64,000 nt of DNA from a virus (lineage: Duplodnaviria > Heunggongvirae > Uroviricota > Caudoviricetes). Where the stretch lies: the IMG/VR virus record IMGVR_UViG_2880395615_000008. One strand, written 5' to 3'. Positions 19,601 through 25,600 of this stretch are shown one piece after another; position 1 is the stretch's first letter, and each line of letters begins with the position of its first letter. The position numbers are program-made.

Positions 19601-22600
19601 TGTAAACCATAGTTAATCTGCGTGCGGATACATGCTTCATAGATAGGATATTCTGGTTTGGGTTGTGAATGTGTTGGTCATCGAGTGGACAATAAGGTAA
19701 GAGGAGTAACTCCTGCAAAACAAAAAAAGAGTTCAACAAAATCAATCAGTTAAAAACACGAGAGATCTGTATAAAAAAGCATCGTAAATTCTGTATTTTT
19801 CCTTTAAATATAATATGTTATTGAGTTTTGTAAAATCTACCAGTGTGGTACATGGATATCGATACCACGGCTAAGTATAAATCTGGTGTTACTACCGTGA
19901 AAGACTCGGTACGACTGGATCCGTGGGTGTTTATGTTCTCCGCAGGATATCGTTTTTAATTTTCTCTGCAAAACCTCTGCAAAACCCCTCTGCAAAACTG
20001 GTCATCAAATGACCAGTTTTTTCCATTCCTTACCGCGTGCGTCGTTGTAAATATCGATCATTTTTTGATTCGAATGGCCTAGCAAAATTTTGGTATCAAC
20101 CCCCTGCTCTCTGAACAATCGCTCTGATAAAGATCTCTGCTCATGGAAAGAGGGTGGGGTGCCATTAGCACGCCAGTTGTAATCCACAGAATCCCGGGCT
20201 TTTTTAAATGCAACGGTTAATGTTGCTGGCTTAACCATCCCGCCGCGCTTAGCTGTCCCTTTCGCGTGATGGTGGTGCAATAGCCACGGACTAAGAACGC
20301 AATCGCGGCAGGATGACACCACATCATCCAGGGTGAGATTTAATTTATCGCAACGCAGAGCCAGAGGGATGGCAATCCGGGTTCCTGTTTTTTGCTGTTC
20401 GACATGAAGATAACCATCCCGGATATCCGAAAATTGCATTTTGCAAATATCTGAAAGGCGCTGGCCTGTCATCAGTGCCAGCAGCATACCGCGCTGTAAA
20501 AAGTAACCATCCTTTTCCGCTGCGTTATAAATCATCATCCACTCATCAAAAGTCAGTCGCTGTCTTGATATCCGTACCTGCGGTTTTTTTGCAGATTCTG
20601 CAGGGTTAAAGCCTGGCGGGACATCGCCCGTTTGCTGAGCTTCCCGGAAAACATCGATCAGTACTTTCCTGAAAATTTGTCCCATTCTGTTATGTCCTCT
20701 GGCCTTGTACTCTTCCAGTACTGATACCACATCTTTTACGGTTATGGCATCTAACGGTCTGGTGCCAAAACGTTCATCAAATACCCTGAGAGGGGCCGCT
20801 TTCTGTTTCAGCGTGTTGAGTTTGATCTCGCCGTTTTCATATCTTTCCTGTTGAATTTTTCTGTAATTATTCAGAAAAATGGTAACGGTTGATGAACCGC
20901 CGGTATCACTAATAATTTTCTCCTGCAGACTGAGCATTTGTTCCATTTGCTGCCGGGCAAGACGGCTGTTCGCTTCTGCTGCAATAGTTTCTGCCAGTTT
21001 CTGGTCAATACTGCCGAGACCGTGATTTTTGCCTGTTATGGGATGCCTGTAACGCCAGTAAACTTTGTTATTTCTTTTGTCAAAATACGGAGATAATCCC
21101 GGAACATCGGTTTTATATTTTCGCGGGCGCGCCATCTTCCAGTATCCTCTTCAAAGCAGGGTGATCTGTGGCGATCACCTCCGGCTTGTTTACCATTCCG
21201 ACAAAGCGAGCTTGCGGATCCACTCGCCAGCGTCTTCCAACTTTTTTGGGGAGAGGAAATATCATTCCGGCTTTAGCGTATTTACTTAACGTACTCGGAG
21301 TAGGGACCGGTTCACTGAATTCCTCTTTTGCCCACTCAGTGAGCAGAATAAGTCTTGCCATGAGCGTCGTTCGCTAATCATGGTCGCCGCCACTATAGCT
21401 GGTGGGCAACGACCGGGGTTGAACATTAAAAATCAGCCTGATTCGGGATCAGTTTTTGCCAGATAGCTGAAACGTATTTTGCCTGGTAACGGGCGTCATC
21501 CAGCGCATTGTGGCGCTCACCTTCGAATGGGATAGCAGTTCTGGCATCGAAGTCTATGGCTTTCCCCAGCTCAACGATTGTGCGTACATCGCGATCGTTG
21601 TAGTAACGCCACGGGCAGGGGATCCCCTGCCGTTCGTATGAACGGCGCAAAATCGTGTTGTCGAAGTTGGCTCCATTTCCCCAGACCTGAACAAAAAATT
21701 CACCGGAGTTTTCGTCGATAAATTCCCGCAATTGTAACAGTGCATCATCTAACGGGATTTCATCGGTCATAATGGCAGATTGCGCTTCGCGTGATTGCTT
21801 AAGCCACCATTTAATGGTGTCCCGATCAATGACTCCGCCAGCAGTTTCCAGATCGATAGTCTTACTAAATTCCGGTCCCATATCTCCGGTTTGCGGATCG
21901 AAAAATATTGCACCTATTGAGATAATCGGGGCATCAGGATTTTTTCCCATGGTTTCAAGGTCGATCATTAGATGGTCACACGTCCTGCTGGTGGATGTGA
22001 TAATGCGATGACCGTTCACCGTAATTAAGGGATCTGCCGTCTCGCCAGTTTCACTATCGCTGGCGTGGTCCTGAGCGCTGCCAGCATTCTCCTTGTGTGG
22101 ATGTTCAGCGCCTTCCATTTTCTCCGAATCGTCTTCCTGAACTTCAACCAGGTTCTTGTCATCGAATGTTTCCTGGTATGTTGCGTCGCCCATCACCGCG
22201 CCACAATCAGGGCAGTTGCCGCCACTCCTCTGACCGCAGGCGGTGCAGATCTTTTCCGGTTCCTGTTGCACTACTGGTTCAGGTTGTTTCGTTTCTGGCT
22301 CGTTTTGTAACGCATTTGGGCTGTTCTGTTCCGCTTTCTGGTCGTTCTGTTCCGTTTCTGGCTGATTCTGGTACACAGAATCGCGGGTCTGGATCCCCTT
22401 AATCCATTTCGGATCATTCGGGTCGCTAATCCCTTCAACAAATTCTCCGCGAGAGGCAGCCAGTAATTTGTCTGCATCGACAGGATTTTGGGGCGGAATG
22501 TTTTTCCGGGCTTCATGGAGTTCTGCCCGCAGTTTCTGATATTTCGCATCAACAGAATTTATCTGTGGCTGAGCATCCATCGACTGCGTGTCCTGATTAT

Positions 22601-25600
22601 GTTCAGTTGTATCCGGTTCCACTGCTTCAGTCGTTGCCTGTTCATCTGCCATTGCGCCAGATGGCTGCGGTTTTTCTTCATCATCCTGTTTTCCTTCTTT
22701 TGTTACACGCTGCGGCATTGGAGCAGAGGAGCGACCGCAGGCAATATCCACGATTTCTGGATCAGGGTTGGCATGGTCGGTTTCGGTCAGTACTTTGTTC
22801 AGATATTCGGTAACACGGTGGGGAGTAGCCTCGATACCAATTGGTGCTTCTTTCACGGACGCAACCACTATCGCGCGGGAATAATCCAGGTGACCAGGCA
22901 TGGCGATGAATTTGTCACGAAAAACAGAAAAGGGCGGCTTATTATCTGAAACGATTTCTTCAATGCGTTTGGCGTGTGCCGGATGTGGATTGTAAATATC
23001 GATGTCCATTGAACGGGCCAGAACGCCAGCGGCAACGTCACGTTCCACTGACGCATCATCGTGGACAAAACCTTCACCGCGATCGGTAAGAATTCCTCCG
23101 CCAGCATTAGCGCCGGATGGCGTGCGGCTGATGCGTAAAACACGATTTCCTTTCATCCACTCTTTTGTCAGCAGACCTCGATCGGTATAGTCAGCGTCCA
23201 GGTATGCTTCGAAAAAAGCAGTCATTAACCCCAGACTGGAATTAACGGGATTAGGGAAAACTTTGTCTGTGTCGCGTACCAGTTTGTGAAGGTCGCGAAT
23301 CTCCAGCGGGTCGAGCAGCTTTGTGTTGTGGGAAATAGCCAGGGCAGTAACAGCAGGCAGTTCTTCAGCTCGTGCGATATGTAATGCCTGAAGTTCTTCC
23401 CGTGAAACGTGCGTTACCGGTTTTTCGCTGCCATGTTGCGCAAGCCAGCGAATGGGCAGTTCCTGACCGGAAATCGGCAGGAGCATATTATCCTCAATCT
23501 CAGCCATGTCTTCGCCATTGACGTTGGTATTGTCAGTGCTGGCTGGTTTGTCCTGAACTGAGGGGGAAGGCGCTATAAATATCATTGTGATGCCATCTTC
23601 TCCGCCTTTTTCATAGCGGTTGCAGAATTCAGTATCGAACACACCTTCAGGCGGCAGGTCATTAACAATGGGCAAATTCACGCGAACAGGTTTTTTGAAA
23701 TCCTCTTCGTCAAATCCAGCATCGTCCATTGCGACAACACCCCGTGATATTGCAACCGATAATTTTTTTGCTGTGCGCCAGTAAAAACCGCCTTTAATCC
23801 CAAGGCGTTTTCTGACTTTGTCATTTTTGGCTTCGTAATACAGTGCAATTTCTTCTTTATCAGTGCTCATTGATAAACCTCATAACTATTTTAAGGTTGT
23901 ACGAATCCCTGCTATTGCTGGCATGCTTAATCAACGGGTATGGCGTTAATACGGCTGGCGGGTTATCCAGCCGGTATTTCGTTATTCAGGTACAGCGATA
24001 CTTTGTTTAACGGGAGACATTCACCGGAAATTTTTTGCTCGTCTCTTGCCTGATGGCAGGATTCTTTACTGGCATAAATTCCGGTAATCACATTCTGTGG
24101 CTCACCTGTTATAAGAAAAACCGTCATCATCAGTGCAAACGCTGAACTCACTGCTGCCCTCCGAAAATGCCAAGTTCAAGAAGGGCAATTCTGGAGAGTA
24201 TGGAATTATCATTGAGAAGATAAGGCTCATATTTTCTCATCCTGATGGCGTCTTCAGTAAACTCCCGGTTACTGAGCAGAATACCAATATTAAAACACCC
24301 TTCAGACGTATTAACGTTTGGTAGTGACGTTTCCATTATCGCGTCCTCAACAATGAATTTTGTGATGCGGTGCCTGGTGCCTCCAGGTGACGTTAACCAG
24401 TTAACAATTAACGCCGGATACAGAGAATCCACCCATAACACTGTTTTTGGTTTTAACTGTTCCGCGTGCGCTGAGCCGCATTCACCGCATCACAAAATTC
24501 ACTTTAAAAAGGGCGGCAGAGCAGCCACGGAGTAAAACTGATACCGCCAAACGTCACCAGAAAACTGATAACAGAGGGCGTTGCAGTGGGGTTGTCACTT
24601 AAGCGTATGGTCAACCTGACAACCCGGCGTCCTCAAGGGGGAACAGAATAACCCCGCCACACTTACCGCCGCGCCATTTCGCGGATTGCCACAACCGGAA
24701 GCGCACGGTCGAACTAAATTTAACGACACCGTACAGAGAGACCAATTTCGCCGTGCGCTTTCGTGTTATGCCCTGACTTTTCAGGGAAAGAGCCTTTCAG
24801 TAAACTGTCAGTACCGGATTCTTATCCGTGTCCGGCGCACGACCACACGTGACAGCGTGTTGGTCTCCATTTTTAACCCAGCCCTTAATGGAGGATAAAA
24901 TGCACTCTAAATCAATCAATCGATATTATGTCCATGTGCAGTTATTTGAAGCAACAATGGAACAGGAGAAAAAGTTCGAGACTCTGATGCCAAATTTTAA
25001 ATACTCCAGGATGATTAATGAAGGTGACATTGAATATAAATTATTGCCAGGGGCATACGTTATTCAGTCAACGCTTAATGCGAATCAAATACTTGAACAA
25101 ACCTTTTCTATTGCTAATTCAGTTGGTGCTAATGCTCACATTTTTGTTTGCCCTTATGATGAAAGTGCAACCCTTTTGCCTTGTGCTGATTTTAGCACTT
25201 ACTAACTAAATTTAATTTATGTTCAAGTTCGGCTATTTGCATACGTAGTGCTTTAACCATTGTTTCATGATAAATCTCACTCACTCCACCTGGGTGTGGG
25301 GTGAATTTAGGTGAATCATCTTTGTTTTCAGAACTCAGATTCTCTTCGTACAGCTTAATAAAGGAATTACGCACATTATGGGATATATTGTCGATGGTTT
25401 CTTTTTCTACGGTACTCAGGTCAAGAGTCGCCAGTTGGGAACGAACTATATTCGCTGCCATTTCCTGGAATTGCATTGGTAAATCTTTAAATTCCATCGT
25501 CAACCTCATCAGTCAGTGTTTCTGGCTAACCAGCGACGCGCGCCAGCTTCAGTTTTAAACGTTTTGCTTCTGGTATACGTCATCGCGGTAAACGTGCCGT

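What the first reader, a model, noticed from the sequence alone, without database searches (positions are those of the whole stretch)
21426..23870. Large exonuclease with DEDDh 3'-5' exonuclease domain, Cys4 ribbon and acidic linker at the RecE position
An 814-aa protein sits where RecE or Exo lies in Rac or lambda, but its C-terminal motifs (D-x-E, D, H-x4-D) indicate a DnaQ-like 3'-5' exonuclease rather than a PD-(D/E)XK 5'-3' enzyme. The N-terminal 500 aa have no features I can assign. No RecT/Bet-like annealing gene is evident nearby.
Basis: partly seen in the sequence, partly recalled or inferred. Interest (0 to 1): 0.4.

Follow-up and report, generated by a model that had tools for sequence, protein, structure and literature searches.

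The report
RecE scaffold carrying a DEDDh exonuclease
This E. coli O157:H7 prophage gene has RecE's non-catalytic front end, but a T4 DexA-like 3'-to-5' exonuclease replaces RecE's usual 5'-to-3' nuclease and there is no annealing partner; it is common and already annotated, but its role has never been tested.

Summary
The 814-aa ORF (21426-23870, minus strand) is real and 100% identical to database proteins named "exonuclease". The C-terminus (aa 633-804) is a DEDDh 3'-5' exonuclease domain (Pfam PF16473, E=2e-67). All five catalytic residues are conserved, and the predicted fold is closest to T4 DexA. The Cys4 motif and acidic linkers exist, and the prophage has no RecT/Bet/Erf-type gene.

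The protein is a RecE chimera in which the PD-(D/E)XK nuclease has been replaced. The family is a mosaic:
- two unrelated N-terminal types;
- a nearly invariant central Zn-ribbon block;
- two alternative nuclease cassettes.

DEDDh forms lie as dicB-ydfD-exo-xis-int without recT in 9 of 9 loci sampled. K-12 Qin ydfE is a truncated copy. The DEDDh cassette occurs in 4046 of 5426 complete E. coli genomes, against 1727 for recE-recT, and is under purifying selection. The prophage is Chi-rich, matching the published "no Rec module" lambdoid class, and a 2025 paper already notes DnaQ-type nuclease genes near int.

The sequence and its class are known; the biological role is untested. Interest is modest.

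The parts
21426..23870 (-). Complete gene for the 814-aa RecE-scaffold/DEDDh exonuclease (stop codon TAA at 21426-21428)
   Evidence: ORF; identical to RefSeq WP_000102174.1 'exonuclease'; 100% identical database proteins P0001-P0015
23878..23881 (-). Shine-Dalgarno GAGG, 7 nt upstream of the ATG
   Evidence: sequence read
22491..23870 (-). N-terminal RecE-type region (aa 1-460). Pfam PF06630 covers aa 56-189 (window 23304-23705). The fold is unassigned.
   Evidence: AF2 model confident for aa 5-100 and 270-385; no structural relative found
22020..22490 (-). Nearly invariant central block (aa 461-617), shared by RecE and by all DEDDh forms. It acts as the recombination joint between the interchangeable cassettes.
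   Evidence: alignment A1; DNA mosaic map; small ordered islands between disordered linkers
22203..22247 (-). Cys4 zinc-ribbon motif C542/C545/C553/C556
   Evidence: weak Pfam DZR match at aa 539-560; pLDDT about 75-77
21459..21974 (-). DEDDh (Rv2179c-like/DexA-like) 3'-5' exonuclease domain, aa 633-804, with catalytic residues D637, E639, D737, H787, D792
21113..21361 (-). Excisionase gene directly downstream. No recT, ralR or rcbA lies between it and the exonuclease gene.
20005..21135 (-). Integrase gene marking the left end of the prophage, which is inserted in ompW
23963..24336 (-). Upstream operon partners: DUF1482/ydfD-like gene (23963-24151) and dicB (24148-24336)
   Evidence: PGAP annotation mapped from L001; same gene order in 9 of 9 loci
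24511..24562 (-). DicF sRNA in the same early-left transcription unit
   Evidence: Rfam RF00039, 75 bits against a gathering score of 48
25830..26219 (-). HTH repressor gene (DicA/CI-like). The only promoter-like sites on this strand lie around it (26253-26226 and 25764-25736).
   Evidence: DicA-repressed dicB-ydfD-ydfE transcription in K-12 Qin is from PMC11430063
21398..48151 (+). Span containing all 14 Chi sites (GCTGGTGG) in the window, 11 of them on the + strand. Two lie at or inside the gene (21398, 21987).

Best explanation
The gene encodes a mosaic member of the RecE protein lineage with three parts. The first is a RecE-type N-terminal region (aa 1-460, fold unknown). The second is a nearly invariant central block containing a Cys4 zinc ribbon, flanked by disordered acidic or Q/P-rich linkers (aa 461-617). 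The third is a DexA/Rv2179c-type DEDDh domain (aa 633-804) in place of RecE's PD-(D/E)XK 5'-3' nuclease.

Shown:
- the architecture;
- the exact junction at RecE residue ~592;
- the intact two-metal DEDDh active site;
- the fold;
- purifying selection on every module;
- the position as the last gene before xis-int of the dicF-dicB-ydfD early-left operon;
- the absence of any annealase or anti-RecBCD gene;
- the Chi-rich genome.

Inferred:
- the protein is a Mg2+-dependent 3'-to-5' exonuclease acting on DNA 3' ends, probably as a dimer like DexA and RNase T;
- it is made only after prophage induction;
- it is delivered to its substrate or partner by the same non-catalytic scaffold that RecE uses;
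- it works as an accessory DNA-end-processing enzyme, trimming 3' tails or flaps or degrading linear DNA, in a phage that relies on host RecBCD-Chi-RecA for recombination.

On this reading it is not the nuclease half of a two-component exonuclease/annealase recombinase.
For: - Architecture: PF06630 plus PF16473. The NF007259 exoVIII model matches only positions 1-603 of 877. BLASTP gives 75% identity to K-12 RecE 50-592 and nothing beyond.
- Active site: catalytic residues align with T4 DexA D7/E9/D119/H186/D191 and are invariant or nearly so in 121 homologues.
- Fold: AF2 pLDDT is 92-98 for the domain, and the top Foldseek hits are DexA, RNase T, REXO2 and Orn.
- Mosaic: DNA identity to recE is 80-95% over codons 121-600 and collapses after ~615. 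The cassette is 97-100% identical in proteins whose first 460 aa are unrelated.
- Both cassettes recur on the scaffold: 18 PDDEXK and 11 DEDDh among 67 long representatives.
- dN/dS is 0.12-0.36 in all modules.
- Context: 9 of 9 DEDDh loci read dicB/kil-ydfD-exo-xis-int without recT. RecE forms are followed by recT.
- No annealase is present.
- Chi: 14 sites against 2.9+-1.7 expected, 11 on the top strand. This matches the 'no Rec module, Chi-rich, RecBCD-aided' class of PMC12315714.
- DNA-metabolism context of stand-alone homologues: Erf-SSB-exo-Abc2 in mEp235; next to a Cas4/DUF2800 exonuclease, SSB and DNA polymerase in Vibrio and Rhodobacter phages.
- In K-12 Qin, the DicA-repressed dicB promoter reads through ydfD into the ydfE remnant of this gene (PMC11430063).
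Against: - No biochemical or genetic data exist for this protein or for any long fused form.
- Substrate (DNA or RNA) and polarity are inferred from homology only.
- The Pfam founder Rv2179c is an exoribonuclease, and the structural neighbours RNase T, Orn and REXO2 act on RNA.
- Host DnaQ-family exonucleases usually inhibit recombination (PMC12315714), so a pro-recombination role is not obvious.
- The function of the RecE N-terminal scaffold is itself unknown (PMC11611040), and it has no recognisable fold. The 'delivery platform' idea rests only on its being shared between the two nuclease types.
- The operon assignment rests on gene order, the K-12 Qin literature and a consensus promoter scan that was not above chance.
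Confidence: 0.55

Rival explanations
1. It is a prophage defence or superinfection-exclusion nuclease of the HREX type. Like the E. coli DexA homologue EcD, the DEDDh domain would ignore unmodified host DNA and degrade modified DNA (5hmC or related) of incoming T-even-like phages.
For: - PMC12153337 shows that plasmid-borne EcD, a stand-alone E. coli DexA homologue, cleaves only 5hmC DNA and protects against T4. The paper also states that DexA homologues are most prevalent in Escherichia.
- The closest solved structure to this domain is DexA.
- The column of DexA W152 holds an aromatic residue here (Y757), and a conserved Asp (D775) lies next to the D169 column.
- The cassette is in 75% of complete E. 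coli genomes, with up to 7 copies per genome. That would fit a host-beneficial gene.
Against: - The gene is the distal member of a repressor-controlled early operon, with no promoter-like site of its own on its strand (PMC11430063). Defence morons are normally expressed in lysogens.
- W152 is Tyr here and Ser in AR_0085.
- The D90-equivalent Asp, which EcD lacks, is retained here (D709).
- EcD starts MIDTET and ends TIPETYD. It is a different stand-alone lineage and was absent from the 120 homologues retrieved.
- PADLOC gives only a weak generic DEDDh match.
- This idea does not explain the 600-aa RecE scaffold.
Confidence: 0.15
2. It is still the nuclease half of a two-component recombinase, working with an annealase supplied in trans by another prophage (RecT, Bet or Erf) or by an unrecognised gene.
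For: - It shares about 560 aa with RecE, including the region that boosts linear-linear recombination in full-length RecE (PMC11611040).
- Stand-alone homologues sit inside Erf-SSB-exo-Abc2 modules (mEp235).
- PMC12315714 accepts DnaQ-like nucleases as legitimate Rec-module members in some phages, for example epsilon34.
- O157:H7 strains can carry recE-recT elsewhere in the genome (H102).
Against: - 0 of 9 long-form loci have an adjacent annealase.
- No annealase was found by Pfam or PHROGs in this prophage.
- The inferred polarity is opposite to every characterised exonuclease/annealase pair, which need 3' tails.
- The RecE part that is replaced is the minimal recombination-active, RecT-interacting fragment (from my memory of Muyrers et al. 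2000; not checked here).
- The prophage is Chi-rich, as expected for phages that use host RecBCD.
Confidence: 0.15
3. It is an RNA 3'-5' exonuclease, as the family name suggests, acting on phage or host RNAs. One candidate role is maturation or turnover of transcripts from the DicF/dicB operon.
For: - The Pfam family is named for the M. tuberculosis exoribonuclease Rv2179c.
- PGAP often names the protein '3'-5' exoribonuclease'.
- The structural neighbours include RNase T, oligoribonuclease and REXO2.
- The gene is co-transcribed with the processed sRNA DicF.
Against: - The nearest solved relative, by both sequence and structure, is the DNase DexA.
- RNase T itself also trims DNA: its top-matching structures are DNA complexes.
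- Homologues sit in DNA replication or recombination modules.
- The scaffold is shared with a DNA exonuclease.
Confidence: 0.1
4. It is a functionless relic of illegitimate recombination in a decaying prophage.
For: - Many copies are disrupted: K-12 Qin ydfE by IS2 and strain 95-3322 by IS100.
- The neighbouring DUF1627 gene in this window carries a 1-nt frameshift.
Against: - dN/dS is 0.12-0.36 in every module at dS up to 1.0.
- Catalytic residues are invariant.
- Intact copies occur in thousands of genomes and in isolated or induced phages, namely HannyBb and vB_EcoS-689R5.
Confidence: 0.03

Closest known systems
RecE (exodeoxyribonuclease VIII) of the E. coli K-12 Rac prophage
   Same: - 75% identity over aa 58-617 against RecE 50-592, including PF06630, the Cys4 ribbon and the acidic linkers.
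- Same slot in the early-left operon, upstream of xis-int.
   Different: - RecE's C-terminal PD-(D/E)XK 5'-3' nuclease (PF12684, aa ~600-866) is absent and replaced by a DEDDh domain.
- No recT, ralR or rcbA lies downstream.
- It scores below the NCBIfam equivalog cutoff (1093 against 1269).
- The first ~57 aa differ.
T4 DexA (exonuclease A; PDB 8KEL/8KEN) and the Pfam PF16473 Rv2179c-like family
   Same: - DEDDh fold and all five catalytic residues.
- DexA is a 3'-5' DNase with roles in DNA scavenging and recombination-linked intron homing (PMC12153337).
   Different: - Only about 21-26% identical.
- DexA is a 227-aa stand-alone protein with extra loops; here the domain is the C-terminus of an 814-aa protein.
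- DexA W152 is Tyr here, and S87 is Pro.
EcD / HREX (E. coli DexA homologue HAK9828821.1; PMC12153337)
   Same: It is an E. coli-encoded member of the same DEDDh superfamily, and it is the only E. coli relative with experimental data.
   Different: - EcD is a stand-alone protein with different termini (MIDTET... and ...TIPETYD, from its cloning primers).
- It has Ala at the DexA D90 position, where this protein keeps Asp.
- Its full sequence could not be retrieved for comparison.
Stand-alone DnaQ-type nucleases of lambdoid Rec modules (e.g. mEp235, epsilon34; PMC12315714)
   Same: - 59-60% identity to the C-terminal domain.
- Lambdoid early-left operon.
- The paper also notes sporadic DnaQ-type nuclease genes outside Rec modules, very near int. 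That is this gene's position.
   Different: - Those proteins are about 180-190 aa and lie next to Erf and SSB.
- This one is fused to a 617-aa RecE scaffold and has no annealase, SSB or anti-RecBCD neighbour.
K-12 Qin prophage pseudogene ydfE
   Same: - Same operon position (dicB-ydfD-ydfE-...-intQ).
- It is the IS2-truncated remnant of the sister form of this gene (PMC11430063).
   Different: - ydfE belongs to the alternative N-terminal type, which is unrelated over the first ~460 aa and has no PF06630 match.
- It is cut after 767 nt, so it has lost the central block and the nuclease.

Membership tests
DEDDh (DnaQ-like) exonucleases, Pfam PF16473 Rv2179c-like | Profile match above the curated cutoff | tested here: met
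   226.8 bits against a cutoff of 27; aa 633-804 cover model positions 2-177 of 177
DEDDh (DnaQ-like) exonucleases, Pfam PF16473 Rv2179c-like | Five catalytic residues D-E-D-D plus His (the DEDDh subtype) | tested here: met
   D637, E639, D737, H787 and D792 align to DexA D7/E9/D119/H186/D191. They are conserved in 120-121 of 121 homologues.
DEDDh (DnaQ-like) exonucleases, Pfam PF16473 Rv2179c-like | RNase H-like alpha/beta fold of DnaQ-family exonucleases | tested here: met
   AF2 pLDDT 92-98. Foldseek top hits are DexA (E=6e-12), RNase T, REXO2, Orn and Cap18, all with probability 1.0.
DEDDh (DnaQ-like) exonucleases, Pfam PF16473 Rv2179c-like | Metal-dependent 3'-5' exonuclease activity | not testable with these tools
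   Needs an enzyme assay
RecE / exodeoxyribonuclease VIII (NCBIfam NF007259 equivalog) | N-terminal Exonuc_VIII region (PF06630) | tested here: met
   118.6 bits against a cutoff of 25; 75% identity to RecE 50-592
RecE / exodeoxyribonuclease VIII (NCBIfam NF007259 equivalog) | Whole-protein score at or above the equivalog cutoff | tested here: not met
   1093.3 bits against a cutoff of 1269; only model positions 1-603 of 877 are matched
RecE / exodeoxyribonuclease VIII (NCBIfam NF007259 equivalog) | C-terminal PD-(D/E)XK 5'-3' nuclease domain (PF12684) | tested here: not met
   Absent here; present in K-12 RecE and in Klebsiella phage 5 RecE
Two-component exonuclease/annealase recombinase (RecET, Red alpha/beta type) | Adjacent single-strand annealing protein gene | tested here: not met
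   None in the prophage; 0 of 9 related loci
Two-component exonuclease/annealase recombinase (RecET, Red alpha/beta type) | 5'-3' dsDNA exonuclease that generates 3' tails | tested here: not met
   The nuclease domain belongs to the 3'-5' DEDDh class. Polarity itself is inferred, not measured.
HREX (DexA/EcD modified-DNA-specific exonuclease defence) | Trp equivalent to DexA W152 and Asp equivalent to D169 (5hmC recognition) | tested here: inconclusive
   The W152 column holds Y757 here (W in 81 of 121 homologues, Y in 12). The D169 column holds F774, flanked by D773 and D775, and the alignment there is ambiguous.
HREX (DexA/EcD modified-DNA-specific exonuclease defence) | Loss of the tetramer-forming D90 (Ala in EcD) | tested here: not met
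   The D90 column holds D709 here; the S87 column holds P706
HREX (DexA/EcD modified-DNA-specific exonuclease defence) | Selective cleavage of 5hmC DNA and protection from T4 | not testable with these tools
   Needs enzyme and plaque assays
Lambdoid phages without a Rec module (Chi-rich, RecBCD-aided; PMC12315714) | No annealase or anti-RecBCD gene in the early-left operon | tested here: met
Lambdoid phages without a Rec module (Chi-rich, RecBCD-aided; PMC12315714) | Abundant Chi sites, mostly on the top strand | tested here: met
   14 Chi sites against 2.9+-1.7 expected (0 of 100 shuffles reach 14); 11 on the + strand; none in the 20 kb outside the prophage

The most novel reading that the evidence does not exclude
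The RecE N-terminal region plus the invariant Zn-ribbon block may be a nuclease-agnostic targeting platform, and lambdoid phages swap a 5'-3' or a 3'-5' nuclease onto it. On that reading the DEDDh version, the commoner one in E. coli, has a distinct annealase-independent job. Two candidates are a modified-DNA-specific or competitor-DNA-degrading exonuclease deployed on induction, and a factor that reshapes DNA ends to channel phage recombination through host RecBCD-Chi. Working this out would also reveal what the long-mysterious N-terminal two-thirds of RecE actually binds.
Probability: 0.2. Interest if true: 0.6.

Novelty: already known. Interest (0 to 1): 0.3.

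Why it matters
The cassette is present in about 75% of complete E. coli genomes, often in several copies. That makes it more common than the textbook recE-recT pair, yet no function has been shown for it. It shares RecE's enigmatic 600-aa non-catalytic region but carries a nuclease of the opposite polarity and has no annealase. This offers a natural experiment for asking what the RecE scaffold does, which is relevant to RecET-based direct cloning. It also bears on how Chi-rich lambdoid phages without Rec modules handle DNA ends. A practical point: many records name it 'exodeoxyribonuclease VIII', which misdescribes the catalytic domain.

Tried and rejected
- The first literature search was swamped by 'receptor' because of word-start matching. 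A search for RecE + DEDDh + prophage found nothing.
- The search for homologous proteins with the full protein returned only copies at least 98% identical. I had to seed from distant relatives instead.
- PADLOC returned only a weak generic CRISPR-associated DEDDh match.
- The EcD sequence could not be retrieved. Only its termini could be read from the cloning primers, and it is not among the homologues fetched.
- The consensus promoter scan was not above chance (8 sites against 7.5 expected), so it is used only as weak negative evidence.
- Pseudogene or relic was rejected on dN/dS.
- A hidden annealase among the hypothetical early genes was rejected after PHROGs and Pfam scans, within the sensitivity of those libraries.

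Full report
**1. Observation**

The window holds an 814-aa ORF at 21426-23870 on the minus strand. It has a GAGG ribosome-binding site 7 nt upstream of its ATG. The window comes from E. coli O157:H7. The gene is 99.8% identical to NZ_CP038428.1 1513699-1516143, annotated WP_000102174.1 'exonuclease'. Proteins 100% identical to it are abundant in public databases under the names 'exonuclease', '3'-5' exoribonuclease' and sometimes 'exodeoxyribonuclease VIII'.

The catalytic residues are D637-x-E639, D737 and H787-x4-D792. The Cys4 motif is C542/C545/C553/C556. The linkers are rich in D/E and Q/N/P/S/T.

**2. Domain identity**

Pfam gives two strong matches:
- PF16473 (Rv2179c-like 3'-5' exonuclease) at aa 633-804, E=2e-67.
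- PF06630 (Exonuc_VIII) at aa 56-189, E=4e-34.

The NCBIfam exoVIII equivalog aligns aa 1-617 to model positions 1-603 of 877 and falls below its cutoff. BLASTP against K-12 RecE gives 75% identity for aa 58-617 against RecE 50-592, Cys4 motif included, and nothing after that.

[quoted passage not shown] The protein is therefore RecE's non-catalytic portion joined to a different nuclease.

The closest solved structure by sequence is T4 DexA, 8KEL. The five DEDDh residues align with DexA's. Across 121 diverse homologues, E639, D737, H787 and D792 are invariant and D637 is present in 120. An AF2 model of aa 456-814 has pLDDT 92-98 over the nuclease domain. Its best matches are DexA (E=6e-12), then RNase T, REXO2/oligoribonuclease and Cap18, all DEDDh enzymes.

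**3. The N-terminal and central parts**

In the C-terminal model, the central block shows small ordered islands: helices around aa 466-497 and the Cys4 hairpins around aa 536-562, with pLDDT about 71-77. Disordered linkers separate them.

**4. Mosaic structure**

I aligned six relatives and built a codon-level DNA identity map against eight. These show:
- Two unrelated N-terminal types. One is RecE-like with PF06630. The other is the HannyBb/A35/K-12 ydfE type, with no Pfam match.
- A nearly invariant central block at aa 461-617, present in all relatives including RecE.
- Two nuclease cassettes, DEDDh or PD-(D/E)XK.

The DEDDh cassette is 97-100% identical at DNA level in proteins whose first 460 codons are unrelated. 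Identity to recE is 80-95% over codons 121-600 and collapses after about codon 615. The conserved block therefore acts as the recombination joint.

The scaffold family is narrow: only 238 clusters among 1.84 billion representatives. Of 67 long members, 18 carry PF12684, 11 carry PF16473 and 3 include RecT. dN/dS is 0.12-0.36 in every module. For the DEDDh domain against its most diverged full-length relative, dN is 0.23 and dS is 1.0. The gene is therefore maintained by selection.

**5. Genomic context**

The prophage is inserted in ompW. It runs int-xis-exo-ydfD(DUF1482)-dicB-DicF-...-repressor, followed on the other strand by cro-ydaT-O-DnaC-...-RusA-Q-lysis-terminase-head-tail.

No RecT, Bet, Erf, Sak or anti-RecBCD gene is annotated. 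None was found by my PHROGs and Pfam scans of ten early ORFs.

In nine loci carrying a DEDDh long form, the order is always kil/dicB-ydfD-exo-xis-int without recT. These loci lie at several different integration sites and include the phages HannyBb and vB_EcoS-689R5. In contrast, K-12 Rac RecE and Klebsiella phage 5 RecE are followed immediately by recT.

K-12 Qin carries an IS2-truncated copy after ydfD, which is the pseudogene ydfE. There the DicA-repressed dicB promoter reads through ydfD and ydfE (PMC11430063). In the window, the only promoter-like sites on the gene's strand lie next to the repressor gene. This is weak evidence, because the scan was not above chance.

**6. Frequency**

The DEDDh cassette is present at >=80% coverage in 4046 of 5426 complete E. 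coli genomes, with up to 7 copies per genome. The RecE-like-N full-length form of this window is in 1251 genomes. The alternative-N form is in 3483. The recE nuclease plus recT segment is in 1727.

**7. Prior art**

A 2025 Genome Research paper (PMC12315714) reports three relevant points:
- DnaQ-like 3'-5' nucleases are a nuclease type found in lambdoid Rec modules.
- Lambdoid phages without Rec modules are Chi-rich and are aided by RecBCD.

I tested the last point here. The window has 14 Chi sites against 2.9+-1.7 expected, and 0 of 100 shuffles reach 14. All 14 lie inside this prophage, and 11 are on the late-gene strand. The prophage fits that class.

[quoted passage not shown] It also shows that a stand-alone E. 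coli homologue, EcD, cleaves only 5hmC DNA and protects against T4. Its cloning primers show that EcD is a different lineage (MIDTET...TIPETYD). In this protein the W152 column holds Tyr and the D90 column keeps Asp.

**8. Interpretation**

Most likely this is a Mg2+-dependent 3'-5' exonuclease acting on DNA ends. It would be expressed on induction from the early-left operon and carried by the same non-catalytic scaffold as RecE. It would act without a dedicated annealase, in a phage that uses host RecBCD-Chi-RecA.

Supporting the DNA-metabolism reading, stand-alone homologues sit in recombination or replication modules. Examples are Erf-SSB-exo-Abc2 in mEp235, and a position next to a Cas4-type exonuclease, SSB and DNA polymerase in Vibrio and Rhodobacter phages.

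The architecture and the active site are shown. Substrate, polarity, timing and biological role are inferred.

The rivals, in order of weight:
- HREX-like defence (0.15).
- A recombinase nuclease using an annealase supplied in trans (0.15).
- An RNA exonuclease (0.1).
- A relic with no function (0.03).

**9. Verdict**

The important addition is that the 'unassigned' 600 aa are RecE's own scaffold. The sequence, its Pfam architecture and the presence of DnaQ-type nucleases near int in lambdoid phages are already on record, so this is not new. What remains open, and modestly interesting, is the function of a very common nuclease-swapped RecE relative and of the shared scaffold.

Noticed in passing
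window 21398-48151: All 14 Chi sites (GCTGGTGG) in the 64-kb window lie inside this prophage, 11 of them on the + strand. None lies in the first 20 kb (the neighbouring prophage tail, effector genes and IS region). Only 2.9+-1.7 are expected for the whole window.
   Followed up: yes
window 24511-24562 (-): A DicF sRNA copy (Rfam RF00039, 75 bits) lies upstream of dicB in the same early-left operon as the exonuclease gene. It has its own terminator-like hairpin at 24528-24513.
   Followed up: partly
window 31676-31850 (+) and 36759-36959 (+): There is a sok antisense RNA (RF01794, 112 bits) next to hokD, and an STnc100 sRNA (RF02076, 148 bits) just upstream of the 648-aa DUF6645-like gene.
   Followed up: no
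window 28759-29528 (+), at ~28869: The DUF1627 gene carries a single-base deletion (one A missing) relative to O157:H7 strain 611. This splits the 256-aa protein into a 59-aa ORF and a 222-aa ORF. It is either a frameshift pseudogene or a sequencing error.
   Followed up: yes
window 16004-19900 versus L001 15866-26445: The T3SS effector genes nleH1-2 (16004-16924) and nleF (16990-17559), plus IS256-family fragments (17606-18240), lie only about 2.4 kb from the integrase. In strain 611 the same interval is about 9.5 kb and also holds IS66/ISEc8, espM1, nleG, and IS630 and IS3 remnants. This is a structurally variable junction between two prophages.
   Followed up: partly
L006 (phage mEp235) 2775-4859; L017 3498-5821; L018 1571-6210: Stand-alone homologues of the DEDDh domain sit in Erf-SSB-exo-Abc2 modules in a lambdoid phage. 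In Vibrio and Rhodobacter phages they sit next to DUF2800/Cas4-family exonuclease, OB-fold SSB and DNA polymerase genes.
   Followed up: partly
P0121-P0270 and P0271-P0388: Three of 67 long RecE-scaffold representatives also match the RecT Pfam family, suggesting RecE-RecT fusions or read-through gene calls. Many Citrobacter and Enterobacter RecE proteins carry an extra precomputed Pfam domain, PF27432, that my Pfam copy did not report for the window protein.
   Followed up: no
L008 2763-3881; L013 1670-2524: Some relatives have a Rha-family regulator, with or without kil, inserted between a dicB fragment and the exonuclease gene. This shows further mosaicism immediately upstream of the gene.
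   Followed up: no
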